Shown here: piece by piece, positions 1-64,000 of the stretch
Numbering within the stretch: the stretch's first letter is position 1
Layout: every line of letters starts with the position of its first letter
Assembly: GCA_028717245.1 (NCBI GenBank)
Contig: JAQUOD010000002.1
Location: forward strand, 76,772 to 140,771
Direction of reading: 5' to 3'
Source of the DNA: Candidatus Omnitrophota bacterium
GTDB lineage: Bacteria > Omnitrophota > Gorgyraeia > Gygaellales > Profunditerraquicolaceae
Length of the DNA stretch: 64,000 bases
The notes under the pieces: model-generated
Told to the model about the DNA's origin: nothing
Database searches by the model: none
What the model saw: only the letters and a program-made list of their open reading frames with translations
Translations under genes and position numbers: made by a program

Positions 1-330
1 ATTAAGGTTGTGGGGCAACCATCAACTGAAACAAGCCAGCCAGCAGAAACTACCACTTCGCCTGCGGATACAGGAACGAAAGAGCAGCAGCCAGCCCAAG
101 CTCCAGTGCCAGTCGAGCCAGAAACCCCAACCTCAGCTCCGACCGCGGTTCCTGCGTCAACGCCAACAGCCGAAGAACCTGCGCCTACTCTTGCTCCGGC
201 CGCAACAGAGCAGCCCGGCGAGCAAGAAGAGGCTGAGGTTAAGGTTGAGGGCGAAAAAGCTCCGGCCGCGGCTCCCGTTGAAGCGAAGCAAGCAGAGGAA
301 AAAGCAGCCGAAGCGCAAGCTGAAAAGGAT
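1..330 (+). other. Low-complexity Pro/Thr/Ala/Glu-rich linker ([16 protein letters not shown]...[16 protein letters not shown])
   Basis: Direct translation of frame +1. Confidence 0.6.
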
Positions 331-3300
331 TTTGAAGCTGTGGAGAAATTATATGAAGAAAAGAATTATGCGGATGCCATAGAGGCATATACCCGGATAA
401 TCAAACTAGCAGAACAGATGAGTAAACAGTCTGGTTGGTGGGTTACTAAATACGCATATTTTGGGCGAGGGATGTGTTATGTAAAACTTGAGCAAACCGC
501 AAGGGCAAGAGACGATTTCCTGATGTCGATAAAGAATGGTAATGACGCTTGGTCTAGCATTATGCTCTTAAAGTTCAAAGACGCCTCGCTATTAAATGAA
601 ACCATAGATAAGATTTTAGAAGTAAAGGTTAATGAAAAGGACGATGTGTATGCTTTAAGTAGCCAAGCATATTGCTTGTTAGATTATGCAAGACGCACAA
701 AGGGAACAGCAAGGCAGGCGCAGTTATTAAATAAGGCAGGGGAATGTTTTAAAGCAACAGTTGGAAGATGGAAAGAGGTCAAATACGAAGAACATGAAGA
801 AACGACCGAGAAAAATATAAAAGAGATAGAAAGCGAGTTAGCCAAATTAACAGGAAACAGGGACGGTTCTAACGGCCCGGCAGCACCCAAAGATGCTTCA
901 GCAAATGGATTACCCAGGCCGCTGGTGAATATAGCGGTGAAATTGTCGCAGTTATTAGCCGGCAAAAATATCAGGGATTGGGCGTGGAGGTTAACGGATG
1001 AAGACTTAAATAGAATACAGACGGCAGCAACTTTATTAAAAGATAAAGGATGCATAAAGGATGAAGAAGAAGCAATGGGTATCCGGTTTATCCGTGCCCC
1101 GCCATCTTGGCTGCTGAAGATTTTATGGAGAATTATTAGTGCTGTAAATTATGTGGATGCGCAAGGAATCATTTACATAATCCTGCCTGGAAATGCCCCA
1201 TCCTACAAGATTGCCCATGAAATCTGGGCAGTATTAAATGATACAAAATATCATACAGAAAATCCGATAAAACTCGGTAAAGATAATTCAGCCCAGCCGC
1301 AAGCCACAAAGAAAGCTACCACGCCAGACCCATCCGCCGCGCCAGCCCAGGTAACCCCCACCCGACATAATATTCTGTTATTCGGCGCAATAATTTTAGC
1401 TGCAGCGGTGTTCGGCGGATTGAATGTTTCGTTTGCTTATGCCTCAGCTAAGGCAGGGCAAACAGGAGAAGGCATTGCATTAGTTATTATTATACCTCTT
1501 GTTATTATCGGGTTTAGGTATTGCTTGCCATATATAATTAGAAATTGGCAGAGGCAAAGAAAGCAAAAGCTTAGCCGCAGACTCGGCAATTATAGGGATA
1601 AAAGCGGGGAGGCAGCTGTCATAAAGGAAATTGAGGGAATAGCAGAGTATAAAAATCCGGATGATCTAAAGAAAGTAAACGCTCTTATCGCATTATTATA
1701 TTGCGGGACTCCGGATATACAACAAGCTGCAGCGCAGGCCTTAGGTGAATTAAAAAGTGATAAAAAAGCAATTAAGAGGGCAATGCGCGTTTTGTCTAAA
1801 ATAGCTTGGAATAGCGGTATGGATAGTAAAACCAATAACGCAGCGGAAAAAGCTTATTTTAAGTTAGCGGATGAGATGGACTTAATAGAAAAAATAAAGG
1901 CCGCAATAGATGGTAATAAAGAAGCAAAAGAAGAAGCAATAGAAGCTATTTACAATAAGGCAGATGGGATAAATAAAGAACTTATTGTTCACAGCCAGGC
2001 AGTGTATGTGGATTTCTACGGTTGGGTAGAGCACTTAATAAGGAATGGGCATAGCAAGTCTTTGTATATGGTAATTACAGCACAAAGAGGAGAATTAAAA
2101 GAAATTAAGTCATTAGTAAATAAAATTATTGCTATACAAGGACGTTTCGAGAGAATTGAGCAAAGACACGGCGCTCTTTCTGAAGAAGAACTCGATGATC
2201 TCGATATAGCCGGGTCATGGTTTTATGCCGCTGATATAAATGAATTAAGAAAGTGTCTGAAGATTTTTAAAGATTTTACTAAGAGAAACGGGAATATACC
2301 TCTAATAGATGCCCTTAAGAAAATTGCGATGGTAGCGATGAGGACTTTATTCCAGCCGCGGGGGGAAAGAGTAAAAATAGGAAGTAGAACGCCGGAAGAC
2401 ATAGTTGATATGAAAACTAGAAGCCTGAGGATGCCTAGGGAAGAAGCGGATGCTTTAATAATACGAGGCAGGGTCATAGGTGTTAAAGATGTTTGTTGCG
2501 AATTGCCGGCTATGCGCGAAACTCCCGATATGGCTGAGGTGGCGGGTAATGTGCCGGGGGGTGATTATAAGATAACTAACGCAGGGTCCGGCTGCTCAAT
2601 ACTTAAAACTATCGAGGTGACATCCTGTTTAATTTTAGCAATTTATGATGACAAAAATCATGTAGGGCTTCTGGCGCAATTTCCTTATTTTTATTCCATT
2701 GAGGAAACCTTAGAAAAGATGCTCTCCGATTTAAAAGAAAAAGGCGCAGATAGAAATAATCTCAAGGTAAGAATTAGTGTGGGCTATACATGGTGGAATA
2801 CTCTTTATAGAGGTATGTTAAGCGAGCCAATAAAATCTTCTTATAACGGCTTTGATAATTACCTCGCTCAATATTTTGACCCGCGGGGGGCAGGGATTGA
2901 TAGGGAACTCATCGCTGCGTTTATTGATAAAAGAATCCCTGTGGAAATTATCTGGCATCCCGCAGAAGCCCGGTCTATCGCCTTTGATACTAAGACAGGT
3001 AAGTTATATAATTTGCGTGCTCCAATTGGCAGGGGGCGCAGTTTTAGCGGCTTAGCCGGTATAGCGCTTTTATTTGTAGCTGCGCTGGCGGTGGTAGATT
3101 TGATTGTGAGAGTGCCCGGACTTGAGTCTCCTATATTATTGGGAATGGCGTTTGGTATAGGGCCAACCGGTCCTTTTGGTAAGAAATATCCATATTTTGG
3201 TTCTGTAAGAGAACCGGCCAGGCAAATCTTATTAAAGTTGACCTATAACGATTTACCCGATAATGTAAAGAAAATATTTGAGGCAATGTATAGTGAGGGA

Positions 3301-6300
3301 GATATCAGTAAAGGCGCATTAGAGGTATGGGTAGAACGTACCTTCGGGAAATTTCAGGCCGAGCAGAAATTAAGGGAGGCGCTTGAGGTATTAAAAGATT
3401 TAACGCCTGAGAGACTTGAGGCCTTAGGCATTGCCAGAAGCGGTAACGGTATACCCCAAATAGGTAGTTTGGCAGGAAGAGCCTTCTTTAATGAACGGCT
3501 GGATTTGGATAGAGATATGTTAGAAGCGCTAAATGCTTTGGAAATAGTATCTAATAGAGATGTGCTTCCGGATTCCCAGTATGCTCATCTAGCCAATATT
3601 AGCCTGGTGCATTTGATAATTTTATATAAGGTTTACCGGAATAAAGTCTACAGGAGAGGATTGGGATTAAGCGAGAAGGATAATAATTTCATAGATTTCA
3701 TATATAAAGTTTACCGCGGAAGAGCGGAAACGGAAAAAATAAGAAAGTTATTTCAGAATCTTACCCTGCAAGACTTGCAAGAACTTTCTAAATATACAAA
3801 TCCTGAGGATAGGTTGAATACGATACAGCATAAATTGAAAGAAATGATTAACAAGCTTAAAAATGATTGTCCCACAGAGGGAGAGAGAATAGAAATGATA
3901 AAGGGGCTTTTAGAGGGATTACCGGCAGGGCAAGAGCCTATGTTACGCATCTTAAATGAAGACTGCGAAAGGTTAGCAAAGGCAGCGCCCCTCTATCCTT
4001 ATTTGATAAAAGCTATTTGTGACCACTACTCCCGTAAGTTCGGCAAGCATTGGCTTTTGCTTTTTGTGGCCAGAGACGCCGGATCATATTTTGAAACAAT
4101 TGACCAGATGGTTAAAGTGGGCTTGATAGATGCCATCTTTTCTATTATTTATGTAAGCGGAGCAAATTATCCCGAAGCAAGGAACGCCTTCTACCAGGGC
4201 ATTAAGACAAAAGAGGAATTTGAAAGGGAATTAGAAAATAATCCCGAACTCAGGTCAGAGGTTGAACGGCTTATCCAGCAGATGAAAGATTTGAAAATTT
4301 TAAATTATGAGCAGTTAGTCATTATGGATTCCTGGGGAACGGGGGCCACCCCTTTATTTATGAAATTGACTATGGAGCACTGTTTAGCTGAATTAGGCAG
4401 GAGGATGAAAGTAAAGCCGATAATAAACGCAGAAATACTGGAAGTAAAGCTTAAAGAAATTAATAGCAAGGGCGAAAAAGTAAGCCCGAACACAGAAAGC
4501 CGTATTAATGTTACCACCCTATTGGAGTTACTCGATGATGAGAAACTTGATAAAGAATTAGTAGCTAAATTAGAAAATTCTATTAATGCGGTTGCGGCCG
4601 AATATAAACTTTGGCCGGTAGAACCCGGATTCCTGCCCGGTAAGCCCGAGGGCATACTTTTCTCTTATCTGCGCGCCATGCTTACCTATAATAGTATAAT
4701 TGAGTATATGAATAGTTCAAAAGGCCCGGATGATTCCGCTACCACAAACGGCAAAAATAACGCTCCTATGGGCGGCTTTGACCCGGCCCGCACAGACGGT
4801 TTGGATAGGCTCCCGGCAGAAAAAACAGAGGAAGCGCGGGCAAAGCTAAGAGGCATTATTAATGATTATGTCAGAAACTCCAAGGATGAGATTTTTGGCC
4901 TTAAGGAGATAGAGTCTGATGCGCAATCAAAGCTGAAGGTTATCGGTATATTGAAACAGGGAGGTTATCGCGATATAGCAAAAATCTTACGCCACTCCTT
5001 AGTAGCGCGCGCTCCGCCCGGATTCGGGTTAATAAAAGCAATCCAAGATTTTGAAAAAGAGTATGGTGTAATTGTGTATGCCGTTAACATCCCCGCCAAT
5101 CTTTCCCCGGTAAAGCAGAATATCATTGTAATCATTAATCAGGCAGAAGAAGAGTTAACCCCTTCTATTGCTCACGAAGCAGCCAGCCTCAAAGGGTTAT
5201 CCGATGAAGAATGTAAGGCATTTGAAGATAAATACACCCGTTTAGAAAACAGATACCTAAAAGCAGAAAACTCCGCGTTAAGAAATGAGGTTATGGTTGA
5301 TGGGCTAACCCGGTCTTTTAACCGCAGGTATTTTGACCTGTCTTTATCTACAGAAATAAAAGAGGCGCTAAGATATAAATACCCCTTGTCTTTATTGATT
5401 TGCGACATAGATAATTTTAAGCGCGTCAATGATAGCTATGGCCATCAGGCAGGGGATTCTGTTTTGCAAGAATTATCCGGGCTCATAAAGAACGCGGTAA
5501 GGGCAAGCGATATAGTCTGCAGGTATGGGGGAGAAGAATTCGTGATTATATTGCCTCATACCAGCGAGGAAAAAGCAGCGGTTGCCGCTGAAAAGATTAG
5601 AAAGATAGTTAAGATGTACAGATTTAACGCCCTCGCAGATGGCATAAAAATAGGGCTTACAGTAAGTATAGGAGTGGTGAGTTTAGGGGATTGCGTTTCT
5701 ACGGAAGAACATCTCATAAAGAGTGCGGATGCTGCCTTGTATTATTCTAAGGCGCAAGGAAGAAATCAGGTTACCCGTTATTCCCGGATGCCAAGAGCCG
5801 TCGATTCCGCCTGCGAAGCGGACAATAATGATTCTTATAAAGTCCTTGAGATGGGCGCGGGCTACGGGTATTCCTTACTTCAGTTAAGAGAACTCCATCC
5901 TGAATGGGAGATCACTGGTATTGATAAGGACAGCCTTGTAATTGAAGTAGCCAAAGAAAGCTGCGGCGAAAAGATTGAAAACATGGATGCTACGAGTACT
6001 TCCTTTGCAGATGGAACGTTTGATTTAGTCATCATAAATTATCCTTTGGATACCAATACGGTCCTGAACGGTTTCTTGAAGGAGGCGTGTCGGGTTCTCA
6101 AAGTGGACGGAAGAGTAGAAATTGTGACTGAGGCTCCTCGCTTTGGTAATCATTTCTCGGTTGAGCAAGCAAACATTTTACTTTCTGAAAATGGCTTTAG
6201 GAAGATAAAGATAGGCCCGCGGCCAGCAGATTATCCTAAATCTAATTTTGATTATCTTGACCTTGATCCTACCGGAAAATTCCACCCCATAAATCCGTTC

Positions 6301-57300: not shown

Positions 57301-60300
57301 TTAGCCAGGGTTGAAGAACTAAAAGCGCGTATGCCGCTTATGCTTTTTGTGATTGATTCCAGCGCTTCAGCATTTAAGGGCTTAGACCCGAAACTCCAGG
57401 CGCCATTTGATATATTGTGGACAGATTTTATTACGGTTCTTACTACGTTCTTACGAGTGGATGCGAATTCCAATCCCAATGTTAAAGTAGTGCGCACACT
57501 CACTGCCTCTTATGTAGCAAAATGGAAAGAAACCAAAGAGAGGTATACTAATGATCTCATTGGGAAAAAAGCTACTGACCTTCTTCTAAGTTTTGGTTAT
57601 CCCGGAAAAGAGGAAGAGCAATCAATCGGAACAGTAGAGAAACAAAAGGCCGTAAATAGCGTAGAGGAAGCAAAAGAAAAAGGCCGTAACTTAGCTAGGT
57701 TCTTAGCCAATAAAGGAATGCTTACCGGCCGTAACCGCTTGAACATTTTCTTCGGGGCGGAGGGCCTGGTCAATCTCGCTGTCGGTTTAAGGAATTATAC
57801 CTATAGCACAGATTTATTAACGAAGTGCGGCTGGATTACTGAGACTGGAATCTATCCTATCCGCGCGCATAAAGGCCATGAGGCAACCTTAGCATATTCC
57901 ACAGATCCTAATAGGCCGCTTTTGGCAAATAGGAGTATTGATATATTCTTAAATGTAAGGCGCCTGGGCGATGAGGCTTACTATAATGAGCCTTTCCAGG
58001 ATGTAGCCAGCCAATATACAAATGTTAACGGCGCTAATATACACCAGACCAATGATTCCATGACTTTCCCTAACATCCAGCGCACGGCGCAAGTCTCTCC
58101 GACCATCCTCTTTGAATTTAATGAAACTACCCCAGATGTTCAAAATAAGATAGAGGCCTTTTATAAAGCATTTGTGGATGAGCTGGCAAAAGGGAGTCTT
58201 GGCGATACGGTTGATGGACCTAAATTACCTGATAACGGCGGCGCCAATCTTTCTTCGTCCAAGACGCCGTTAGCAACCAAAGATGCATGGGAAAAGATCG
58301 GAGCGCAGAAGAGGGCCGGGGTTTTAGTGTCGCTATTTTTCGTATATTCTAAAAAAAGTGCGGGCATTGGAGACTTTAGAGACAAAAGGTTAGTGATAGA
58401 TTGGGCTGTTTTGACCGGAAATTCAATACTTCAGGGCCTACCGCTAAATGATATGGGCGCTAATTTTTGTCCTTACGATTCCGACAGTTCTTTCGCCTTA
58501 GATCCCGTATACACATCATTAGAAATGTTATCTACCGGAGAACAGATCAAGGCTAAGATAGAAAAAATAAGGGAGATGTTTCCTGTTGGTAAGCCTTATG
58601 TGGATTATGGAATAAAGAAAGCAAAGATCCAGCTCCTTTGGGAGATTTACACGGGAAATCCTAACCTTGACTCTTCGGAATTCAGAAAATATAGAGAAGA
58701 AAATTCTTATTGGATGGATGATTTCGCGCTCTTTAAAGTCCTGAAAGATTTAGAAGGCGGGAAACCCTGGTATGAATGGGAAGAGGGATATAAAAACCAC
58801 GATAAAGAGGCCTTAGAAAGTCTTCGCAGAGAACACACAAAAGAAATAACTTTTCATATGTGGGTTCAATGGCAGCTGTATGAGCAGCTTAAAGAGGCTA
58901 AAAAATATGCCGAATCCAGAGAAATTTTGCTAAAGGGCGACCTGCCCCTTTTGGTATCTAAGGATAGCGCAGATGTCTGGGCGCATCCGGAATTCTTTAA
59001 ATTGGAGTTTGCCAGCGGGGCGCCTATGGATATGTATTCTGCTTTAGGACAGCGTTGGGGCATGCCTACATATAACTGGGAAACTATTAAAGCCGATAAT
59101 TTTGGATATTTGAAAGAAAAGCTAAAGTATGCCCAAAATTTCTATCACATTTTAAGGATAGACCATGTCGTAGGTTTATTCCGGATTTGGAGCATACCTT
59201 ATAATGAGCCTTTGGAGAATCAAGGCTTAAATGGATTCTTTGACCCTTGTGAAGAGAATAAATGGGAAGGGCACGGCAAAGAGATATTATCCGCGATGCT
59301 TGAGAGCATAGAGATGCTCCTTTGCGCCGAAGATTTAGGGGTTATCCCCAAGGTATGCACTGACACCTTAAAGGAATTCGGTATCCCGGGTAATGATGTC
59401 CAGCGTTGGGCGAAAGACTGGAAAGGAACACGCAATTTCTTGATGCCTGAGGATTACCGTGAACTTTCTGTGGCAATGTTATCTACGCACGACACGACTA
59501 ACTGGCCGGCATGGTGGGAAAATGAAGCCGGGACTGTTGATGAAAACCTTTTTATCAGAAAGTGCGCGCAGCAGGGAATAGATTATAGCAGCGTAAAAGA
59601 GAAATTATTTGATTTAGGCCTCTCAAGGCATGCAAGATTACGCTGGTTAAATAGCGTTACCTCTAGCGATATCTTGGCCGATATTCTAGGAAAAAGAAAA
59701 GAAGAAATAGCTGATTTTATAGAGATGTATGAAAACACATATCAGGAAAAAGAGAAACTCTGGGAAATCCTAAAGCTTATTGGGCCGATGAGAGAAGAAT
59801 GCGATAGTGATATTCTTAGGGCGGCATTGAAACTCAGTTTAGATTCTAATGCAAGATTCTGCGTAAATACTATTATTGATTACCTGTATTTAGCTTCCGA
59901 TATCTTTAAAGGCGACCCATATCAATATCGGATTAATACTCCGGGCACGGTCAGCGAAAAGAACTGGTCTCTTGTTATGCCCATTCCTCTTGAAGAGCTG
60001 TTAGAGCATGGGATAAATAAAGATATACGTAAGATGGTTGAATCTTCGGGAAGGCGCGCGCCTCAATCAATAAAGGAAGACAATTTAGGCCTTACCTTAA
60101 TTATAAATATACACGATCTAGGAGCAGCAAACGTAGATGAAGCAAGGGGGGGGCTATATATTGATGGTGAAAAAATTGTGACTGGCCTCGAAGACCTGAT
60201 AGGCCTCTTTAAAGAAATTGATTTCCCGCTGACCTTTTATCTTTGGGGTTTATTGAAGACCTCTATTGTGTCTCATTTAGTGCACGGACTTGATTACCCG

Positions 60301-63300
60301 GAGGCGACGAAAGAGCAAGATATTAAAGCATATATAGAAGAGCGCAGGGATTATTTTGGCATAGGCAATGAGATAGAAATAATTGAGGCCAAAGCAATTG
60401 GCGGGGATAACCGCCTTTACCTGCAAATGAAAGTGAACGGAAGAACGCTTTCTATGGCTATCGGGTATCCTACTAAACATGCCACCTATAATTATGCAGG
60501 AAAAGAGATTAAACATAGTGAGCGATTTGGTAATTTCTTCTCTCTTGCTGATTATTCTATCACGCCATATTTAAAGGATCGGGTTGAAGCATTGAGAGGG
60601 TTGATAAAGAAAGCGCAAGGTACTAAAAAGAAGGTTATCGTGGATTTTATTCCTTGGTTATCTCCTGAGGTGCTCACTGACGAAAATTATCATTATTTTA
60701 AACATAAGAAGATAGTCTCGGATAAGACCGACGAGGAGATTTTGAAAGAGAAAGAATGCTTCGGCGTAGTATTCTATCCGCAAGACAATGGAAGAGTTTT
60801 TGTATATTGCAGAACAGACTCACAAGATCAGCTTCGCCCTAATTTAAGCGCTAAAACCGAAGATGGCAGATATTATTGGGAAGAATACTATTTAAATTAC
60901 CTGAAATATTTTATAGATGAGTTTGACGTTGATGGGTTCAGGGTGGATATGGCAGAAGAGTTGTGCGACGAAAGCGGCGATTATTCTCTCCTCAAAAGAG
61001 CGCTCTTTAACGCGATAAACTATGCCTCAGAAAAGAATGGAAGAAAGCTGTATTTTGTGCTCGAGGCCTATGCTAATGTTCACCGCAATATTTTCAGGCC
61101 CTGGAACAAAGAATTAAGTTATTATGCGATTAAGACTTATTATAAGGATGTGATGGATAACATTATTAAAGCTGATACCTTGGGGTTACAAGGTTCTTTA
61201 AACTGGGTGATTAATAACCTAGAGGCAGCCCGCACAGAGGCGGTTTTAATTACTCAGTATGACGATGAGAGCCTCGTAGACTCTGTACCAGACGAAGACA
61301 AAAGGCAACAAGTGATAAAAGAGTATATTGCTCTTGCTAAAGGAGGCTACAATGTCATTTTTTATCTTAACTACCTGGCAGGATTTGCCGGTTGCCTGAC
61401 CCCTGCGGCTGGAGGAATGCGCAAGCAATCTGAAGAAGGGCATACATATTATACACATAAGTTTGCTACTCAAGAAGAATTCAAAACAGTAATGGAACTT
61501 TCTTTGCCTGAAATAATCAAGGGTTCTTATTTCTATAAGCTTATGAAAGAATTACCCGAAGTAGAACGTGTAGAGCTGGAAGGGGGAAGATTAATTATAC
61601 ATTATTCAAATACTTTTAGTTGGATTAGGAGAAACGTGCCTGAGCTTGTGGATAAAGTCATTGTCACTCTTTCAATGGAAGGAAACATCCCTGAGTTCGA
61701 AGGATTTGACGCGCAGGATGCCAATACTAAAGGCGGTATGGGCGCGCACTATGGAGATAAGCTGGAAGGCCTCTTTAAATTGGGTATTAAGGCATATGGC
61801 ATCCAGCCGGGATACTCAAAGATGATGAAGGCAGGAAGATTCGATGATGTTGATTACAGCGGGATTATAAATAAAGGTATCCTACAAAGGGTTTATGATT
61901 CTGAAAACAAGCCGCTTGTAATTCCGGTATATGCCTGGGATAATAACGACCCCAATAATGCATATAATAATCCTTTAATCAATGTTGAGGCTTGGAAAGT
62001 CATCCGCGCAGGAACCGTTGATTTCATCTTAAAGTCGCCTATCTTTGATATCCTCTACACGGATGATAGGGTTTGTCGGTTTGCGCAGGAGATAGTTTTT
62101 GGAAAGGCGGCATTCCAGCTTCTTAAGAGGCTAAATATCATTCCTGATATATTACATTTAAATGAAGCGCATACGGTGGTTGCTGCGGCGCTATTAAGAG
62201 CTGATGACTCAACTTTCAGGAAGACAGCAATTGTGTACACTAATCATACGATTGTGCCTGCTGGCCTTGAAGTTTTCTATTCAGGGCAACTAAAGACTGA
62301 TGTAGACCGCATGATGTATCAGATAGGTATTCCCGGAGAAAGGCATAATGAATTCCGTTCGAGATTCTTAAGCTCAGCCGACGTGGTTAATTTCTGCTAT
62401 GCTGCCACCTACTTTGCGGATGTAATAAACGGTGTCAGTAATGAGCATGCCCGGGCGACCGAAAAATTATTTAAAGCTATGTACGGAAAAGGATTTGATG
62501 TGAGTGTTGTGGGCGTTCTTAACGGTTCTGGGAATAGCTGGAAGAATGATAAGTTACTTTCCATCGAGAAGAAAGGAATGACTCCTGCAGAAGAAGAACT
62601 TTGGAACATTCACGAAGAAGGAAAGGCACTTGCCTATACAGAGGTTGAGGCGAGAACCGGCGTTAAACTTGATCCGCGCAAACCAGCACTTTGGGCGGTC
62701 AGAAGGATTGTGGATTATAAGAGCCAATATCCGATGTTAAGATTCTTAGTCGGGCTTATTTGCGCTGAGCGAGAGGCTCGCTTTACAAGAGATGAGCTCA
62801 AGAATTTAATGTTTAAATTTACCCCTGATTTGCAGATAGACTATAACAGGGAATTAACAGAAGCTGTGCTCGATTATATTTTCCAAGATAGAGAATACGT
62901 AAACGGTTTGGGGATGCAGGTTGTGGTAGGCGGGCCTGAGTATAAGTATATGAGATTCTGGGTTGAAGAGTTTAAGAGATGGTCCGAGATACCCGAGCTT
63001 AAGGGCAGGTTTATTTATGTTCCTGACTCTGACACCCGGCTCCTTAAGATGCAGGCGATCGGAGCGGATATATGTATTAATATGCCTAGGCCCCTTGAAG
63101 AAGCCTGCGGTACTTCTGACCAGAGAACAGGCATAAATGGAGGAGTGAACATTGCTATAAGAGGGGCAGGGCCTGTTGAATGGATAACGGATTATAATGA
63201 AGAGACGCGTGAAGGGAGCGGATTCCTGCTTGATTCATACACTAAACTTTCTTCTGAAGGTTTGGTTGCGGATAATGCGCTATTTTACCGTAAAGCCCCT

Positions 63301-64000
63301 GCTGATATTCTGCAGAAGCTTGAGATAGCTGCAAGAATATTCTATACCGATAAGGCTCAATGGAAGTATCTGATGCATAATTCATATCTGGCAAGCGCAA
63401 AGGTTACAGCCATAGCGATGGAACAAAGATACGCTAGAGATGTGTATAGGCTTGCGCTTAAAAATAGGGAAGATGTATTAAGGAGCCAGAATCCCGCTAA
63501 TAAACCTGATAGCACCTACCCCGGCACCGAAAAAACAGAAGACGTCGGCCTTCCTAATGCTGAGGTAACAGTTGCTTTGGAAGGCAAGAAAGTGAAAGAT
63601 TGGAAGTTATCTATGCCGGAAGGTATTGAGTCAGAATTAGAAGGAAGAATCAAAGCTAAGGCAGATGGGCTTCATAGAGAGTTAATCGCCTGGCTTGCCC
63701 AAACAGAGCATGCCCCACCTTCGGGAATCTATAAATTTCTTCTTTCCTACATAGTTACCTCTCCAGAAAAAGACTTACCTCCTGATGAAACCCTCCTTGG
63801 CAAAGTAGAAATAGCCGATAAAATAATCCACATTGCCTACGCTACCTTAAATAAACCGCAAGCTGTTATTATCTTTGACTTCTTCCGCCACGAAATCCTC
63901 GGCCATATTGCCAAGAATACAGAAGATGAAGGGCTCGCCTGCCAGCCGAGTGAGATTTATTTTAGTACCCATCCGGATGAGCTCTCAAGATTTTTAGAGG
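1..64000 (+). CDS. Internal fragment of one giant multidomain protein gene (frame +1; partial at both ends; more than 21,333 codons in the window)
   Basis: Frame +1 has no stop codon in any region read codon-by-codon (most of 1-37.7 kb, plus spot checks to 64 kb). The ORF track has no complete frame +1 ORF and only ORFs of 208 aa or less in other frames. Recognisable protein domains follow each other in the same frame. Confidence 0.9.
337..552 (+). other. TPR-like helical repeat region ([17 protein letters not shown]...[19 protein letters not shown])
   Basis: Spacing of Ala, Tyr and Gly residues resembles a TPR repeat. Confidence 0.3.
1366..1545 (+). other. Two predicted transmembrane helices ([17 protein letters not shown] ... 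[13 protein letters not shown]) followed by a basic [10 protein letters not shown] stretch
   Basis: Hydrophobic stretches in frame +1. Confidence 0.5.
5299..5780 (+). other. GGDEF diguanylate-cyclase domain with intact GGEEF motif ([10 protein letters not shown]; GGEEF at 5527-5541)
   Basis: Motifs [29 protein letters not shown] and RYGGEEF are all present. Confidence 0.8.
5836..6200 (+). other. Class I SAM-dependent methyltransferase domain ([10 protein letters not shown] motif I; GIDKD; FDLVII; LKVDGRV)
   Basis: Canonical methyltransferase motifs I, post-I, II and III in order. Confidence 0.7.
6760..7010 (+). repeat. Membrane module copy 1 ([13 protein letters not shown]-...[10 protein letters not shown]); its paralog is at 9010-9250
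   Basis: A nucleotide block of about 30 nt, ttcgtccaacatccttagcagtcctatttt, is shared with 9018. The minus-strand track ORFs 6843-7130 and 8988-9380 share the peptide AFFKAGGLR. Confidence 0.65.
7081..7910 (+). other. M28-family zinc aminopeptidase-like domain (SAHFDA ... DDNASG ... NAEEFDGLG ... FHTTKD)
   Basis: The His/Asp, Asp, Glu-Glu and His metal-ligand pattern of M28 is present in order. Confidence 0.6.
8100..8420 (+). other. Zincin-like metallopeptidase motif region ([17 protein letters not shown]; HELGH at 8323-8337)
   Basis: HExxH motif in frame +1. Confidence 0.4.
9010..9250 (+). repeat. Membrane module copy 2, ending in the lipobox-like stretch [22 protein letters not shown]
   Basis: Same evidence as copy 1. 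Confidence 0.65.
10800..11215 (+). other. CBM-like beta-sandwich module copy 1 ([13 protein letters not shown]...[22 protein letters not shown])
   Basis: Paralog of the module at 11545-11905 ([13 protein letters not shown]...[22 protein letters not shown]). Confidence 0.4.
11260..11530 (+). other. Junction cassette J1: TM plus KKRNSK anchor, conserved leader [27 protein letters not shown], then RR-containing signal-peptide-like segment ending VRA/QS
   Basis: Aligns with J2 (14890-15190) and J3 (20290-20515). Confidence 0.5.
11545..11905 (+). other. CBM-like beta-sandwich module copy 2
   Basis: Paralog of the module at 10800-11215. Confidence 0.4.
11915..12195 (+). other. FN3-like (purple-acid-phosphatase N-terminal type) domain copy 1 ([22 protein letters not shown]...[14 protein letters not shown])
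   Basis: About 88% nucleotide identity to copy 2 at 13240-13500. Confidence 0.65.
12199..12336 (+). repeat. Perfect (Thr-Pro)x23 dipeptide linker
   Basis: The acg/act/aca cct/ccg/cca hexamer repeats. The antisense track ORF 12120-12428 reads (GV)n. Confidence 0.95.
12337..13220 (+). other. Clan GH-A TIM-barrel glycoside hydrolase domain #1 (GINTVRTY; acid/base WELGNEYN with Glu at 12664-12666; nucleophile FSEGGTDS with Glu at 12931-12933; [10 protein letters not shown])
   Basis: The GH-A beta4 NE(Y) and beta7 SE(G)G motifs are present. Family (GH5-like or GH72-like) not resolved. Confidence 0.7.
13240..13500 (+). other. FN3-like domain copy 2
   Basis: Paralog of the domain at 11915-12195. 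Confidence 0.65.
13561..14455 (+). other. Three tandem cadherin-like / He_PIG-type beta-sandwich repeats of about 95 aa (PPVI..IP...dL.DYV.D...NATLTG.ILTISA...W.G.T...ITV.D)
   Basis: Three tandem units. A Gly8 tract at 13513-13560 precedes them. Confidence 0.55.
14515..14775 (+). other. Cluster of 3-4 transmembrane helices ([27 protein letters not shown] ... [26 protein letters not shown])
   Basis: Hydrophobic stretches in frame +1. Confidence 0.5.
14890..15190 (+). other. Junction cassette J2: HExxH block ([25 protein letters not shown]; HERTH at 14896-14910), leader [27 protein letters not shown], then SRR plus hydrophobic segment ending VEA/KE
   Basis: Aligns with J1 and J3. The HExxH block recurs at 17473-17550. 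Confidence 0.5.
15190..15960 (+). other. S8 subtilisin-like serine peptidase domain (Asp in VFVLDSG, His in KVHGSIV, Asn in NMSFGN, Ser in GTSMAAP)
   Basis: The Asp/His/Ser triad motifs occur in canonical order. Confidence 0.75.
16020..16890 (+). other. WD40 / PD40-like beta-propeller repeats ([62 protein letters not shown])
   Basis: Six or more repeated blades. Confidence 0.6.
16950..17270 (+). other. Transmembrane cluster; contains an exact 18-nt direct duplication tcttggtgggaggggcta (SWWEGL x2)
   Basis: Direct sequence and hydrophobicity. Confidence 0.5.
17610..17920 (+). other. Transmembrane cluster ([22 protein letters not shown] ... [20 protein letters not shown])
   Basis: Hydrophobic stretches in frame +1. 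Confidence 0.45.
18200..19800 (+). other. Divergent SecA-like / SF2 DEAD-type motor ATPase module (Walker-A-like [24 protein letters not shown]...[14 protein letters not shown]; NBD2-like [24 protein letters not shown]...[22 protein letters not shown]; motif-VI-like [10 protein letters not shown])
   Basis: Residue-by-residue correspondence to the SecA blocks [31 protein letters not shown] and AGR...VTIATNMAGRGTDI / QLRGRSGRQG. The Walker B segment appears degenerate. Confidence 0.4.
20290..20515 (+). other. Junction cassette J3: leader [21 protein letters not shown], then hydrophobic segment [15 protein letters not shown] ending VYA/QS
   Basis: Aligns with J1 and J2; lies immediately upstream of GH-A domain #2. 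Confidence 0.45.
20520..21450 (+). other. Clan GH-A glycoside hydrolase domain #2 (GINTIRTY; [15 protein letters not shown] with Glu at 20857-20859; [12 protein letters not shown] with Glu at 21130-21132; [12 protein letters not shown])
   Basis: Paralog of domains #1 and #3. Confidence 0.7.
22489..22698 (+). repeat. 5 tandem in-frame repeats of 42 nt (14 aa: (I/M)[13 protein letters not shown])
   Basis: Direct sequence. The antisense track ORF 22479-22724 shows the repeated peptide [10 protein letters not shown]. Confidence 0.85.
23335..24600 (+). repeat. About 7 tandem repeats of about 180 nt (60 aa; consensus [21 protein letters not shown]....[12 protein letters not shown]....FYT); unrecognised family
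   Basis: Direct translation. Confidence 0.7.
27190..28090 (+). other. Clan GH-A glycoside hydrolase domain #3 (GINTVRTY; [14 protein letters not shown] with Glu at 27469-27471; [11 protein letters not shown] with Glu at 27790-27792; [10 protein letters not shown])
   Basis: Paralog of #1 and #2. The 17-mer ataaatacagtaaggac is shared with 12454. Confidence 0.65.
31370..32270 (+). other. Polytopic membrane block 1 (about 10 predicted TM helices)
   Basis: Successive hydrophobic stretches of 18-24 aa in frame +1. Confidence 0.55.
33560..34660 (+). other. Polytopic membrane block 2 (about 8 predicted TM helices)
   Basis: Read codon-by-codon across 33.5-34.7 kb; hydrophobic helices separated by short loops. 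Confidence 0.55.
35200..36750 (+). repeat. About 10 tandem alpha-helical repeats of about 60 aa (LP..VR.....VI.DLN.QL..LNTERN.D..KAIK..I..LKDIL); the last three units (36235-36750) are nearly identical in nucleotide sequence
   Basis: Direct translation. The antisense track ORF 36219-36635 contains two copies of the same peptide. Confidence 0.75.
37680..38100 (+). repeat. Conserved module A copy 1 ([37 protein letters not shown]...[25 protein letters not shown]...[21 protein letters not shown]); function unknown
   Basis: About 93% nucleotide identity to copy 2 at 40510-40920. The frame-2 track ORFs 37616-37804 and 40385-40630 give paralogous peptides. Confidence 0.7.
38330..39700 (+). other. 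NTP_transferase-like (sugar-1-phosphate nucleotidylyltransferase fold) module B1 ([19 protein letters not shown]; SYWGDTG)
   Basis: The YGV..D..G.I..F.EKP and W.D.G motifs are typical of RmlA/GlgC/GalU-type pyrophosphorylases. Confidence 0.5.
40510..40920 (+). repeat. Module A copy 2 (second half of a tandem segmental duplication of about 2.8 kb)
   Basis: Same evidence as copy 1. Confidence 0.7.
41640..43000 (+). other. NTP_transferase-like module B2 ([17 protein letters not shown]...LPI; [10 protein letters not shown]; FIEKP; GDWLDTG)
   Basis: Has the GG.G.R...K..LPI, EKP and W.DTG motifs; paralog of B1 and B3. Confidence 0.55.
43930..45100 (+). other. NTP_transferase-like module B3 ([24 protein letters not shown]; [10 protein letters not shown]; GVWFDTGG)
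   Basis: Paralog of B1 and B2. Followed by the conserved tail IPLGW(L/V)YD...YYNPANP(T/S)[18 protein letters not shown], which occurs at 43660-43790 and again at 45607-45726. Confidence 0.55.
45766..46440 (+). other. Glycerophosphodiester-phosphodiesterase (GDPD)-like TIM-barrel region (IIAHGM..NIEQ...[15 protein letters not shown])
   Basis: Partial GDPD motif set. The second catalytic His is not evident, so the region may be degenerate. Confidence 0.3.
49852..51420 (+). other. GT-B glycosyltransferase, GT5 glycogen/starch-synthase-like domain ([20 protein letters not shown]; [10 protein letters not shown]; [10 protein letters not shown])
   Basis: Matches the GlgA-type N-terminal KTGGLADV..ALP motif and the C-terminal GRL..QKG and PS.FEP.G motifs. 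Confidence 0.65.
51650..52100 (+). other. Possible HxGH-class (cytidylyltransferase/NadD-like) Rossmann nucleotidyltransferase ([17 protein letters not shown])
   Basis: G.F.G.F.P.H..H-like N-terminal motif with T/A substitutions. Confidence 0.25.
53975..55350 (+). other. Alpha-D-phosphohexomutase (PGM/PMM)-like domain (DVRGK...; active-site loop [18 protein letters not shown]; metal loop [12 protein letters not shown])
   Basis: TRSHVE sits in place of TASHNP (the Ser is retained) and DLDTDR in place of DGDGDR. Confidence 0.55.
56690..57300 (+). other. SIS-domain, phosphoglucose-isomerase-like region ([17 protein letters not shown]; SPDIGGRNM)
   Basis: Resembles the PGI blocks ISKSGTT.ET and GGRYS. 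Confidence 0.3.
58300..59750 (+). other. GH77 4-alpha-glucanotransferase (amylomaltase/MalQ-like) domain (SAGIGDFRD; [17 protein letters not shown]; [21 protein letters not shown]; [12 protein letters not shown]; CAEDLGVIP; [12 protein letters not shown])
   Basis: All GH77 signature blocks are present, including the catalytic Asp (RIDH), Glu (AEDLG) and Asp (THD). Confidence 0.8.
60620..61480 (+). other. GH13-like (alpha-amylase family) catalytic region ([13 protein letters not shown] resembles conserved region II with the nucleophile Asp)
   Basis: Region II motif at 60934-60969; regions I and III are not clearly canonical. Confidence 0.35.
61880..63420 (+). other. GT35 alpha-glucan phosphorylase-like domain ([18 protein letters not shown]; [15 protein letters not shown]; [26 protein letters not shown])
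   Basis: Matches the short archaeal/bacterial GT35 blocks YTNHTPVPAGHD and EASGTS.MK. The PLP-binding Lys position aligns with Arg. Confidence 0.6.

What the first reader, a model, noticed from the sequence alone, without database searches (positions are those of the whole stretch)
1..64000. The whole 64-kb window is one uninterrupted ORF: a fragment of a giant gene longer than 64 kb
Frame +1 contains no stop codon in any region I read codon-by-codon, and no complete frame +1 ORF appears in the supplied track. Stops are abundant in the other five frames, whose longest ORF is 208 aa. Recognisable protein domains succeed one another in the same frame from the first base to the last. The window has no start, no stop and no intergenic DNA. 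Genes of this size are extremely rare and have been reported mainly in Omnitrophota-type candidate phyla and a few other bacteria. The low GC content and AGA/AGG/ATA codon usage would fit such an organism, but that is inference.
Basis: seen in the sequence. Interest (0 to 1): 0.95.

Follow-up and report, generated by a model that had tools for sequence, protein, structure and literature searches.

The report
Fragment of an Omnitrophota giant gene
The whole 64-kb window really is one stop-free reading frame, a piece of one of the giant membrane-threaded multi-enzyme genes already known to be common in Omnitrophota bacteria, and it appears to be built by joining complete ordinary genes end to end in frame.

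Summary
Observation confirmed. Frame +1 has 0 stops in 21,333 codons, against about 1,350 expected. The other five frames have 761-1,972 stops. The coding signal is uniform, and there are no RNA genes or long near-identical repeats. The protein is a mosaic rather than a repeat adhesin or NRPS. It has about 35-44 hydrophobic membrane segments and a very divergent SecA-like module. It also carries GGDEF, a SAM-methyltransferase, M28 and S8 peptidases, a WD40 propeller and three GH158-like TIM barrels. An Omnitrophota-specific (alpha/alpha)6 barrel is present, followed by about 5,700 aa with no detectable homology. The last third is alpha-glucan enzymes: GlgA-like, PGM, MalQ/GH77 and a phosphorylase-like module. 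The closest relatives (48-58% identity) are in Omnitrophota MAGs, several of them also inside giant open frames. This matches the published Archaeovorin-type or multi-enzyme class of Omnitrophota giant proteins, so it is a new member of a known kind. One new detail: three modules match complete free-standing genes from start or signal peptide to stop, and the exported ones keep an internal signal-peptide-like or lipobox-like segment. This suggests growth by whole-gene fusion and points to candidate cleavage or start-transfer sites. The gene's ends and the host genome could not be recovered.

The parts
1..64000 (+). One open reading frame (frame +1, 21,333 codons), open at both window ends
   Evidence: 0 stops against about 1,353 expected; uniform coding signal
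1..351 (+). Pro/Thr/Glu/Ala-rich linker (aa 1-117), like the internal linkers
349..531 (+). TPR repeats (aa 117-177), below Pfam cut-off
5293..5769 (+). GGDEF diguanylate cyclase module (aa 1765-1923); GGEEF at aa 1843 with an RxxD I-site upstream
   Evidence: Pfam E 1e-48; motifs
5827..6150 (+). SAM-dependent methyltransferase module (aa 1943-2050)
   Evidence: Pfam E 1e-12
6772..6981 (+). Junction cassette 1: '[11 protein letters not shown]' + TM, a positively charged loop 'SPPALKK', then a signal-peptide-like TM ending in Cys, then a Pro/Thr linker
   Evidence: 87% DNA identity to cassette 2 over 67 nt
7276..7899 (+). M28 aminopeptidase-like module (aa 2426-2633); metal-ligand motifs present
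   Evidence: Pfam E 2e-20; sequence
8323..8337 (+). HExxH motif (HELGH, aa 2775-2779) in an unannotated stretch
   Evidence: not followed up
9019..9231 (+). Junction cassette 2: same build as cassette 1, ending in the lipobox-like 'ISSC' (Cys at aa 3072) and a Pro/Thr linker
9352..10695 (+). (alpha/alpha)6-barrel module (aa 3118-3565) of an Omnitrophota-specific family that has no Pfam model
   Evidence: 224 homologues, the top 120 all free-standing at 465-679 aa; AF2 pLDDT 94.8; Foldseek matches to AGE-type epimerases and GH76, E 6e-9
10831..11826 (+). Two CIA30-like (beta-sandwich) modules (aa 3611-3699 and 3854-3942) either side of a TM hairpin
11938..13500 (+). fn3/purple-acid-phosphatase-N domain, (Thr-Pro)n linker (nt 12194-12332), GH158-like TIM barrel 1 (aa 4112-4419), second fn3
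15208..15915 (+). S8 subtilase module with an intact Asp/His/Ser triad (DSG aa 5072, HGS aa 5105, GTSMAAP aa 5267)
   Evidence: Pfam E 5e-23; motifs
15988..16890 (+). WD40 beta-propeller (aa about 5330-5630)
17008..17901 (+). Cluster of 5 hydrophobic TM-like segments (aa 5670-5967)
18178..20100 (+). Very divergent SecA-like module (aa about 6060-6700) with degenerate ATPase motifs: MSGGKT, LEFD in place of DEVD, SRNTN in place of GRGTD
   Evidence: the only PDB hits are SecA/SecA2, E 2e-7; in 1.84 billion representatives the annotatable hits are canonical SecA at about 25% identity; Pfam sub-threshold; motifs
20404..20514 (+). Internal signal-peptide-like segment '[36 protein letters not shown]|Q' directly before TIM barrel 2
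   Evidence: aligns with the N-terminal signal peptides of free-standing homologues
20527..21483 (+). GH158-like TIM barrel 2 (aa 6843-7161); both clan GH-A glutamates conserved (GNE, SETG)
   Evidence: PDB GH158 E 5e-11; 2,232 homologues; end-to-end alignment
23338..24600 (+). About 57-aa beta-rich tandem repeats, about 7 copies (aa 7780-8200)
27157..28143 (+). GH158-like TIM barrel 3 (aa 9053-9381)
30370..34644 (+). Two polytopic membrane blocks (aa 10124-10706 with about 6 TM; aa 11187-11548 with about 10 TM) with no detectable homology
   Evidence: no Pfam, NCBIfam or PDB hit
35038..36750 (+). 59-aa helical tandem repeats, about 10 copies (aa 11680-12250); the last copies are 87% identical in DNA
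37789..46005 (+). Three diverged paralogous nucleotidyl-transferase / fucose-pyrophosphorylase-like modules (aa about 12597-15335) and a weak GDPD hit
49879..51435 (+). Glycogen-synthase-like GT5+GT1 module (aa about 16627-17145); KTGGL replaced by QVGGI
53968..54990 (+). Phosphoglucomutase/phosphomannomutase module (aa about 17990-18330); active-site 'TRSH...NGFK' present
58228..60054 (+). Complete GH77 4-alpha-glucanotransferase (MalQ) module (aa about 19410-20018); catalytic RIDH / CAEDLG / STHDT conserved
   Evidence: Pfam E 9e-108; TIGR00217 malQ above cut-off; end-to-end alignment with free-standing genes
61618..63495 (+). Alpha-glucan phosphorylase-family / GT5-like module (aa about 20540-21165)

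Best explanation
The window is an internal fragment (at least 21,333 aa) of a genuine giant protein-coding gene from an Omnitrophota bacterium. It belongs to the published 'Archaeovorin-type' or 'multi-enzyme metabolic cluster' class. Shown here: one selected open frame; a mosaic of enzyme modules that keep their catalytic motifs; about 35-44 hydrophobic membrane segments in clusters; a highly divergent SecA-like module; and closest relatives in Omnitrophota. Also shown: at least three modules (GH77/MalQ, an Omnitrophota-specific (alpha/alpha)6 barrel and a GH158-like TIM barrel) each correspond to a whole free-standing gene, from its start or signal peptide to its stop. They are as conserved as those free-standing genes are among themselves. 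The gene therefore grew by in-frame fusion of complete genes, joined by Pro/Thr linkers and reusable transmembrane 'junction cassettes'. Inferred: the polypeptide is threaded back and forth through the inner membrane. Signal-peptide-like segments act as start-transfer signals that place the hydrolase and peptidase modules outside the cytoplasm: M28, (alpha/alpha)6, GH158-like x3, fn3, and S8 with its WD40 propeller. The NTP- and SAM-dependent modules stay inside: GGDEF, the methyltransferase, the SecA-like module, and the C-terminal 8,800 aa of sugar-nucleotide and alpha-glucan enzymes. The product would thus couple extracellular glycan and protein breakdown to intracellular sugar handling and storage, either as one tethered assembly or after proteolytic processing.
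For: Open frame and coding signal. Domain map. Membrane segments. SecA-like module: the only PDB hits are SecA/SecA2, and a full HMMER scan of 1.84 billion representatives gives 35 hits whose annotatable members are canonical SecA. Omnitrophota affinity. Related loci L001, L002, L007 and L008 are likewise entirely open frames sharing modules at 45-56% identity, from independent assemblies. Whole-gene correspondence: GH77, (alpha/alpha)6, GH158-like. Conservation is equal to that among free-standing genes: 64% against 65%, and 51% against 54%. Catalytic motifs are intact. Topology heuristic: the outside segments after M28 are each flanked by an N-in TM and then an N-out TM, and the SecA-like module follows an N-out TM. 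The M28 segment and the placement of GGDEF and the methyltransferase inside each need one further weak TM. Each outside block begins with a signal-peptide-like segment...ISS|C...TFT|C, VRA|Q, VEA|K, VYA|Q. The architecture matches the literature: GT5/GT1, PGM, methyltransferases, peptidases, TPR, SecA-like and many TM helices. The V. archaeovorus 39,678-aa protein has 42 TM helices and peptide support.
Against: The gene's ends, its neighbours and the host's marker genes were not recovered. The window's own contig is absent from both collections searched. No reads were available, so a chimeric join cannot be directly excluded. The topology rests on a Kyte-Doolittle plus positive-inside heuristic, not a trained predictor, and some parities need an additional weak TM (between M28 and aa 2965; before aa 2266). 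The side of the membrane for the C-terminal third is undetermined. About 27% of the window (aa about 7,200-12,900, apart from TIM barrel 3 and the repeats) has no detectable homology. The SecA-like ATPase motifs are degenerate, so it may not hydrolyse ATP. HEAT repeats, C39 peptidase and NUDIX, which are frequent in Archaeovorins, were not found in this fragment. There is no expression evidence for this gene.
Confidence: 0.82

Rival explanations
1. Polyprotein precursor. The giant ORF is translated once but is not the working unit. Internal signal-peptide-like and lipobox-like segments are cleaved by signal peptidase I/II, possibly together with the built-in S8 and M28 peptidases. This releases ordinary-sized secreted, lipid-anchored or membrane-anchored enzymes. 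This rivals the 'single tethered assembly' reading, not the identity of the gene.
For: Every predicted outside block starts with an n-region, an h-region and a small-residue (-3,-1) site or a Cys: aa 2323, 3072, 3842, 5060, 6838. These segments align with the cleavable signal peptides of free-standing homologues. The S8 triad is intact. West-Roberts et al. proposed cleavage but had no cleavage points.
Against: No experimental data. Bacterial signal peptidases acting on internal sites of a polytopic precursor are not established. Only one site fits the canonical lipobox (ISSC). The cytoplasmic modules have no comparable boundary signals. The sample is small (5 sites) and no trained predictor was run.
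Confidence: 0.3
2. Extracellular prey-cell-wall-degrading effector or coat, the hypothesis of Kizina and of West-Roberts. Most of the protein, sugar enzymes included, is displayed outside the cell and attacks or processes host surface polymers during epibiotic predation.
For: Outside-type hydrolases and peptidases are present: GH158-like x3, an (alpha/alpha)6 barrel, M28, S8, fn3 and CIA30-like beta-sandwiches. The literature links giant proteins to attachment and predation.
Against: About 40% of the fragment is alpha-glucan and sugar-nucleotide enzymes whose free-standing GH77 homologues lack signal peptides. Those enzymes need cytoplasmic substrates such as NTPs and sugar phosphates (established biochemistry). 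GGDEF, the SAM-methyltransferase and the SecA-like module also need cytoplasmic cofactors. No lytic transglycosylase, dockerin or adhesin repeats were found.
Confidence: 0.25
3. Assembly or sequencing artefact. Several ordinary neighbouring genes, or pieces from different genomes, were joined so that they merely look like one frame.
For: No reads were available. Relative L001 contains an exact 2,388-bp tandem duplication that could be an assembly artefact, which shows that such contigs are not error-free.
Against: A chance frame without any of about 1,350 expected stops has P about 1e-607. Module boundaries lack both the ancestral start and stop codons. Composition and codon signal are uniform. 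No repeat over 90% identical is longer than about 50 bp, so there is nothing to seed a misjoin. Independent MAGs carry homologous modules inside fully open frames of 13-28 kb.
Confidence: 0.03
4. The host is not Omnitrophota but another PVC-group or related bacterium, such as Planctomycetota, as two related MAGs are labelled.
For: L001, L002 and L005 are titled 'uncultured Planctomycetia/Planctomycetales'. Giant proteins of 30 kAA or more also occur in Verrucomicrobiota. The GH158-like modules are closest to Bacteroidota and Sumerlaeota genes.
Against: All other related loci and nearly all named members of the (alpha/alpha)6 family are Omnitrophota. The automated TPA labels are probably coarse. 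The architecture matches Omnitrophota giants.
Confidence: 0.1

Closest known systems
Archaeovorin-type giant proteins of Omnitrophota (West-Roberts et al. 2023, bioRxiv 10.1101/2023.11.21.568195); type sequence is the 39,678-aa protein of 'Ca. Velamenicoccus archaeovorus' LiM
   Same: A single enormous ORF with many TM helices. It has a divergent SecA-like module with no detected wing/scaffold domain, plus GT5 and GT1 glycosyltransferases, PGM/PMM, methyltransferases, glycoside hydrolases, peptidases including S8, and TPR. Most of the sequence is poorly conserved.
   Different: Only a fragment is available. No HEAT repeats, C39 peptidase, NUDIX or SLT domain were detected in it. No sequence-level relative of its SecA-like module was found among giant proteins. 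Neighbouring secretion and pilus genes could not be checked.
'Class 1 multi-enzyme metabolic cluster' long proteins and Pfam 'Module 2 sugar metabolism' (Nielsen & Lui 2026, bioRxiv 10.64898/2026.06.07.730766)
   Same: Many distinct Pfam families tile the polypeptide with none dominating. PF08323, PF00534 and PF02878/PF02879 co-occur. TM density is about 1 per 500-600 aa. There are few recent nucleotide tandem repeats.
   Different: That paper does not discuss end-to-end correspondence with free-standing genes, retained internal signal peptides or junction cassettes. No response-regulator, radical-SAM or ROK domains were found here.
Canonical SecA / SecA2 preprotein translocase ATPase
   Same: The alignment is colinear over NBD1 (C-terminal part), the preprotein cross-linking domain, NBD2 and the start of the helical scaffold. 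These are the only detectable relatives.
   Different: Identity is about 25%. The Walker A motif is shortened (MSGGKT), DEVD is replaced by LEFD and GRGTD by SRNTN. There is no SecA_SW hit. The module is embedded between TM clusters in a giant ORF.
Free-standing MalQ (GH77), GH158-family beta-1,3-glucanases and the Omnitrophota (alpha/alpha)6 'hypothetical protein' family
   Same: Full-length colinear homology at 44-67% identity with catalytic residues conserved.
   Different: Here they have no start or stop codon of their own and are continuous in frame with their neighbours.
Viral polyproteins with internal signal sequences (for example Flaviviridae), a functional analogy only, from general knowledge
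   Same: One long membrane-threaded translation product in which internal signal and stop-transfer segments set the side of each module and mark signal-peptidase sites.
   Different: No evolutionary relationship. Cleavage is untested here. The host is bacterial and the product is 5-10 times longer.

Membership tests
Omnitrophota giant proteins, Archaeovorin type (West-Roberts 2023) | Single ORF above 90,000 bp (30,000 aa) | not testable with these tools
   The window is open at both ends, so at least 64,000 bp is certain. The contig could not be found or extended.
Omnitrophota giant proteins, Archaeovorin type (West-Roberts 2023) | Numerous transmembrane helices | tested here: met
   About 35 distinct segments at KD19 >= 1.8 and 44 at >= 1.6, in clusters. 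This is a heuristic, not DeepTMHMM.
Omnitrophota giant proteins, Archaeovorin type (West-Roberts 2023) | Divergent SecA DEAD / preprotein-binding domains without the wing/scaffold domain | tested here: met
   SecA_PP_bind and P-loop_SecA appear in the right order below cut-off, with no SecA_SW hit. The only PDB hits are SecA/SecA2, E 2e-7. The full-library scan finds canonical SecA only, at about 25% identity.
Omnitrophota giant proteins, Archaeovorin type (West-Roberts 2023) | SecA-like module falls in the giant-protein-specific SecA clade | tested here: inconclusive
   No giant-length protein was among the 35 hits. Two Pfam-less fragments (P0241, P0247) may be such modules. No phylogeny was possible.
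Omnitrophota giant proteins, Archaeovorin type (West-Roberts 2023) | Domain set: glycosyl transferases (GT5, GT1), methyltransferases, glycosyl hydrolases, peptidases, NUDIX; HEAT repeats most frequent | tested here: inconclusive
   GT5, GT1, methyltransferase, GH77, GH158-like, M28, S8, PGM and TPR were found. NUDIX, HEAT and C39 were not found in this fragment.
Omnitrophota giant proteins, Archaeovorin type (West-Roberts 2023) | Encoded in an Omnitrophota genome | tested here: inconclusive
   The closest loci and family members are Omnitrophota. There are no marker genes in the window.
Omnitrophota giant proteins, Archaeovorin type (West-Roberts 2023) | Proximity to type II secretion / pilus and carbohydrate import genes | not testable with these tools
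   No flanking DNA was available.
Long proteins of 10 kAA or more, class 1 multi-enzyme (Nielsen & Lui 2026) | At least 10,000 aa; many distinct Pfams with none dominating by copy number; TM or signal-peptide content | tested here: met
   The fragment is 21,333 aa. At least 20 distinct families were found, with a maximum of about 3 copies each. TM segments are present.
Dockerin-type giant proteins | Many dockerin (PF00404) and TSP3 (PF18884) repeats | tested here: not met
   No such Pfam hit in any of 30 overlapping chunks.
NRPS/PKS megasynthases | Condensation, AMP-binding, PP-binding, KS and AT domains in repeated modules | tested here: not met
   None detected.
Giant repetitive adhesins (RTX/Bap/cadherin-like) | Most of the length is made of tandem Ig-like, cadherin or RTX repeats | tested here: not met
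   There are only three short diverged repeat arrays and two fn3 domains. Tandem DNA repeats cover under 2% of the window.
Canonical SecA | Intact Walker A (GxxxxGKT), DEVD box, GRGTD arginine finger, and wing/scaffold domain | tested here: not met
   MSGGKT, LEFD and SRNTN replace them, with no SecA_SW hit. It resembles SecA but is not a standard member.
GH77 4-alpha-glucanotransferase (MalQ) | Family HMM above cut-off and a conserved catalytic Asp/Glu/Asp | tested here: met
   PF02446 E 9e-108. TIGR00217 scores 231 bits against a cut-off of 205.65. RIDH, CAEDLG and STHDT are conserved.
GH158 (clan GH-A endo-beta-1,3-glucanase family) | Sequence similarity to characterised GH158 members and both catalytic glutamates | tested here: inconclusive
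   The best PDB hit is GH158, E 5e-11, but over only half the barrel. GNE and SETG are conserved. Substrate was not tested and no CAZy model was available.

The most novel reading that the evidence does not exclude
Omnitrophota giant genes are bacterial polyproteins assembled by in-frame fusion of complete genes that keep their own export signals. The internal signal-peptide-like and lipobox-like segments and recurring three-TM 'junction cassettes' serve as start-transfer signals that restart translocation module by module, perhaps aided by the built-in SecA-like module. They also serve as signal-peptidase I/II cleavage sites. If so, one 64+ kb translation product would yield a fixed-stoichiometry set of secreted, lipid-anchored and cytoplasmic enzymes. 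This would supply the cleavage points that earlier work lacked.
Probability: 0.25. Interest if true: 0.75.

Novelty: new member of a known kind. Interest (0 to 1): 0.45.

Why it matters
Giant genes of tens of kilobases challenge ideas about how long a bacterial mRNA or protein can be, and about how such a protein is inserted into the membrane. The kind itself is already documented in Omnitrophota, so this window adds one more example rather than a new phenomenon. Its specific value lies in the module boundaries, which can be read at residue resolution against free-standing homologues. That gives direct evidence for growth by whole-gene fusion and a short list of testable candidate start-transfer or cleavage sites. 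It also suggests a clear split between outside hydrolases and an inside alpha-glucan pathway. The published 'all extracellular cell-wall degradation' reading does not predict that split.

Tried and rejected
1. Extending the gene failed. The search for related loci refuses queries above 5,000 aa. The window's own contig is not in the species-representative genomes or the JGI metagenomes, where the best matches are 54-67% identical. Start, stop and neighbours therefore remain unknown.
2. The search for homologous proteins with the SecA-like region returned nothing.
4. I first read L001 as colinear with aa 1760-4986. tblastn showed that it shares only modules, in a different order and copy number, so this reading was rejected.
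5. I looked for synteny between the neighbours of free-standing GH77 genes and the domain order in the giant gene. None was found at E < 1e-8, apart from one GGDEF gene in L077.
6. The dark region (aa about 7,200-12,900) gave no significant Pfam, NCBIfam or PDB hit beyond the TIM barrel.
7. Dockerin-type, NRPS/PKS and repeat-adhesin classes were rejected for lack of their defining domains.
8. Stop-codon reassignment was rejected as an explanation, because no stop codon of any kind occurs in frame.
9. No embedded RNA genes were found.
10. The junction-cassette motifs 'SPPALKK' and 'SSPIFW' were not found in the related giant frames L001, L002, L007 or L008, so those exact cassettes are specific to this lineage.
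Full report
**1. The observation**

Frame +1 of the window contains no TAA, TAG or TGA in 21,333 codons. Base composition predicts about 1,353, so the chance probability is about 1e-607. The other five frames carry 761-1,972 stops. Their longest stop-free stretch is 219 aa.

All 42 consecutive 1.5-kb windows show the same coding signature in frame +1. Purine at codon position 1 is 0.58-0.74, GC1 exceeds GC2 in all but three of them (where the two are roughly equal), and codon log-odds are positive in frame +1 only. The two GC dips at 16-20 kb and 32-36 kb coincide with clusters of hydrophobic segments.

There are no tRNA or tmRNA genes and no Rfam families. The longest internal DNA repeats are 78-87% identical, and nothing over 90% identical exceeds about 50 bp. 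The window therefore has no repeat that would invite a misassembly.

**2. What the protein is**

I scanned 30 overlapping 1,000-aa chunks against Pfam and ran NCBIfam on the second half. The result is a mosaic of unrelated modules rather than a repeat protein. In order along the frame:

| Position (aa) | Module |
|---|---|
| about 117-177 | TPR |
| 1765-1923 | GGDEF, E 1e-48 |
| 1943-2050 | SAM methyltransferase |
| 2426-2633 | M28 peptidase |
| 3118-3565 | Pfam-less module |
| 3611-3699, 3854-3942 | CIA30-like beta-sandwiches |
| about 3980-4050, about 4420-4500 | fn3 domains |
| 4112-4419, 6843-7161, 9053-9381 | clan GH-A TIM barrel, three diverged copies |
| 5070-5305 | S8 subtilase |
| about 5330-5630 | WD40 propeller |
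| about 6060-6700 | SecA-like module |
| about 7,200-12,900 | almost no detectable homology |
| about 12,597-15,335 | three nucleotidyl-transferase / fucose-pyrophosphorylase-like modules |
| about 16,627-17,145 | GlgA-like GT5+GT1 |
| about 17,990-18,330 | PGM/PMM |
| about 19,410-20,018 | complete GH77 MalQ, Pfam E 9e-108; TIGR00217 above its cut-off |
| about 20,540-21,165 | alpha-glucan-phosphorylase-family module |

Catalytic motifs are intact in most modules:
- GGDEF has GGEEF plus an RxxD I-site.
- S8 has DSG, HGS and GTSMAAP.
- M28, PGM (TRSH...NGFK) and GH77 (RIDH, CAEDLG, STHDT) keep their motifs.
- The TIM barrels keep GNE and SETG.

A Kyte-Doolittle scan finds about 35 strong hydrophobic segments, or 44 at a looser threshold. 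They lie in clusters, and there are practically none after aa 12,516.

**3. The SecA-like module**

Pfam gives two sub-threshold SecA families in the correct order. phmmer against all PDB sequences finds only SecA and SecA2, with E 2e-7 to 4e-6 over about 400 colinear residues. A filter-free HMMER scan of 1.84 billion representative proteins gives only 35 hits at E <= 1e-3. Those I checked are canonical SecA at about 25% identity, plus two Pfam-less fragments.

The ATPase motifs are degenerate: MSGGKT; LEFD in place of DEVD; SRNTN in place of GRGTD. No wing/scaffold domain is detected. So the module derives from SecA but is not a standard SecA. This matches what West-Roberts et al. describe for giant proteins. 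I could not test whether it belongs to their giant-specific clade.

**4. Where it comes from**

The window's own contig is not in the 185,579-species genome collection or the JGI metagenome collection. With aa 1-5000 as query, all eight related genome loci are Omnitrophota MAGs, including Ca. Gygaella obscura, or MAGs with coarse 'Planctomycetia' labels. Four of them (L001, L002, L007, L008) are themselves entirely open frames of 2.5-28 kb. They share modules with the window at 45-56% identity, but in a different order and copy number.

The Pfam-less module at aa 3118-3565 has 224 homologues, and nearly all named ones are Omnitrophota/Omnitrophica. An Omnitrophota origin is therefore well supported but not proven, since the window holds no marker genes.

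**5. Whole genes fused in frame**

Three modules could be compared with free-standing homologues at residue resolution.

- **GH77.** Nearly all of the 80 metagenome loci carry a 590-640-aa gene bounded by stops. These genes align with the giant protein from their first residues to their last ('...SSGRI*' against giant '...[13 protein letters not shown]...'). Neither the ancestral start nor the stop survives in the giant gene.
- **The (alpha/alpha)6 module.** Free-standing 465-679-aa homologues begin with ordinary signal peptides. At the same position the giant protein has '[23 protein letters not shown]|[12 protein letters not shown]', and relative L001 has '...FAPALS|CGSKEEP'. With a 60-sequence alignment AlphaFold gives pLDDT 94.8. 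Foldseek places the model among (alpha/alpha)6 barrels (cellobiose 2-epimerase/AGE family, GH76, MmpH) at about 10% identity. It is therefore a new carbohydrate-active-like family specific to this phylum.
- **TIM barrel 2.** The best PDB hit is GH158, E 5e-11. There are 2,232 homologues. The top ones are free-standing 330-575-aa secreted proteins of Flavobacteriaceae (T9SS) and Sumerlaeota. Their signal peptide or lipobox aligns with the giant's internal '[36 protein letters not shown]|QS'. Their C-terminus aligns with the start of a Pro/Thr linker.

The embedded copies are as similar to free-standing genes as those genes are to each other: 64% against 65% for GH77, and 51% against 54% for the barrel. 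They are therefore under comparable constraint. Neither preprint mentions fusion, free-standing counterparts or internal lipoproteins.

**6. Junction cassettes and topology (inference)**

Two 87%-identical DNA stretches encode the same cassette. It consists of '[11 protein letters not shown]' plus a TM, a positively charged loop 'SPPALKK', a signal-peptide-like TM ending in Cys, and then a Pro/Thr linker. One cassette lies upstream of M28 and the other upstream of the (alpha/alpha)6 barrel. Two other paralogous cassettes (aa 3782-3846 and 4999-5065) end in VRA|Q and VEA|K.

A positive-inside count places several blocks between an N-in TM and an N-out TM, which means outside:
- the (alpha/alpha)6 barrel with a CIA30-like module;
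- CIA30-like, fn3, TIM barrel 1 and fn3;
- S8 with the WD40 propeller;
- probably TIM barrel 2, the beta repeats and TIM barrel 3.

M28 follows an N-in TM, but closing its block needs one further weak TM before aa 2965. The SecA-like module follows an N-out TM, which places it inside. GGDEF and the methyltransferase are assigned inside on cofactor grounds and one further weak TM before aa 2266.

This is a heuristic, and some parities need one more weak TM. The C-terminal 8,800 aa has no convincing TM. Its enzymes use sugar phosphates and NTPs, and its GH77 homologues lack signal peptides, so I place it in the cytoplasm by inference.

**7. Mechanism**

Most likely the gene encodes one membrane-threaded product. 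It would display glycan- and protein-degrading modules outside the cell. It would hold signalling (c-di-GMP), methyl-transfer, SecA-like and alpha-glucan synthesis and turnover modules inside.

Whether it works intact or is cut is open. The internal signal-peptide-like and lipobox-like sites, together with the intact S8 and M28 modules, make a polyprotein reading plausible. I put it at about 0.3, with 0.25 for the full version stated as the novel case. The published reading of an extracellular wall-degrading coat fits the N-terminal half but not the C-terminal third.

**8. Comparison with what is known, and novelty**

- Giant ORFs over 20 kb are common across Omnitrophota classes, and the V. 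archaeovorus ORF has 39,678 aa and 42 TM helices (PMC10066038).
- West-Roberts et al. report up to 85,804 aa. They define Archaeovorins by the domain repertoire seen here.
- Nielsen & Lui report up to 147,155 aa and 5,761 proteins of 10 kAA or more. They describe a 'multi-enzyme' class whose sugar module (PF08323, PF00534, PGM) matches this window.

The window is therefore a new member of a known kind. HEAT, C39 and NUDIX were not found in this fragment. Total length, neighbouring genes and SecA clade membership could not be tested. Dockerin-type, NRPS/PKS and repeat-adhesin classes fail their defining features.

**9. Verdict**

Interest is 0.45. The finding is striking to a non-specialist and expected to a specialist. 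The added value is the residue-level evidence for whole-gene fusion and the candidate start-transfer or cleavage sites.

Noticed in passing
L001:6228-10999 (CAZSDJ010000009.1): The related giant frame contains an exact, 100% identical 2,388-bp tandem duplication carrying the (alpha/alpha)6 module, a CIA30-like domain and a junction. This is either a very recent duplication or a short-read assembly artefact.
   Followed up: partly
window 8323-8337 (aa 2775-2779): An HExxH zinc-metalloprotease-type motif (THELGH) lies in an unannotated 300-aa stretch after the M28 module. It has no Pfam hit.
   Followed up: no
window 12194-12332: A nearly perfect (Thr-Pro)23 linker is encoded by a 6-nt tandem repeat. 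Similar Pro/Thr-rich linkers lie at module boundaries (aa 1-117, 3070-3111, 3563-3608, 7150-7272).
   Followed up: partly
window 35038-36750 (aa 11680-12250); 23338-24600 (aa 7780-8200); 22495-22691: Three diverged tandem arrays have no family match. The first is about ten 59-aa helical repeats directly after the 10-TM block, with the last copies 87% identical in DNA. The second is about seven 57-aa beta-rich repeats ('SGGLGA...V.W.V.D..TG'). The third is five 14-aa '[14 protein letters not shown]' units.
   Followed up: partly
window 30370-34644 (aa 10124-11548): Two polytopic membrane blocks of about 6 and about 10 TM segments have no homologue detectable by Pfam, NCBIfam or PDB sequence search. 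A possible transporter or glycosyltransferase-like core was not resolved.
   Followed up: partly
window 20527-21483 and paralogues 12334-13257, 27157-28143: The closest free-standing relatives of the GH158-like modules (44-50% identity) are T9SS-sorted or lipoprotein enzymes of Flavobacteriaceae/Bacteroidota and a Sumerlaeota MAG, not Omnitrophota. This hints at cross-phylum acquisition before fusion.
   Followed up: no
L001, L002, L005 (record titles): MAGs deposited as 'uncultured Planctomycetia/Planctomycetales bacterium' carry Omnitrophota-type giant frames or the Omnitrophota-specific (alpha/alpha)6 family. They are probably coarse or wrong taxonomic labels.
   Followed up: no
window 11106-11732, minus strand: This is the only ORF of 150 aa or more outside frame +1 (208 aa, TTG start). 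It is antisense to the CIA30-like and TM-hairpin region. It is most likely a chance antisense frame and was not scanned for homology.
   Followed up: no
P0241 (359 aa), P0247 (606 aa): P0241 is the best library hit to the SecA-like module, and P0247 aligns over most of that module. Neither has a Pfam domain. They may be fragments of other giant-gene SecA-like modules on short contigs.
   Followed up: no
window 37666-38070 vs 40492-40896: This is the longest internal DNA repeat (409 nt, 81% identical; aa 12560-12694 against 13502-13636, 75% identical). It lies at the head of two of the three nucleotidyl-transferase-like modules, which indicates module duplication inside the gene.
   Followed up: no
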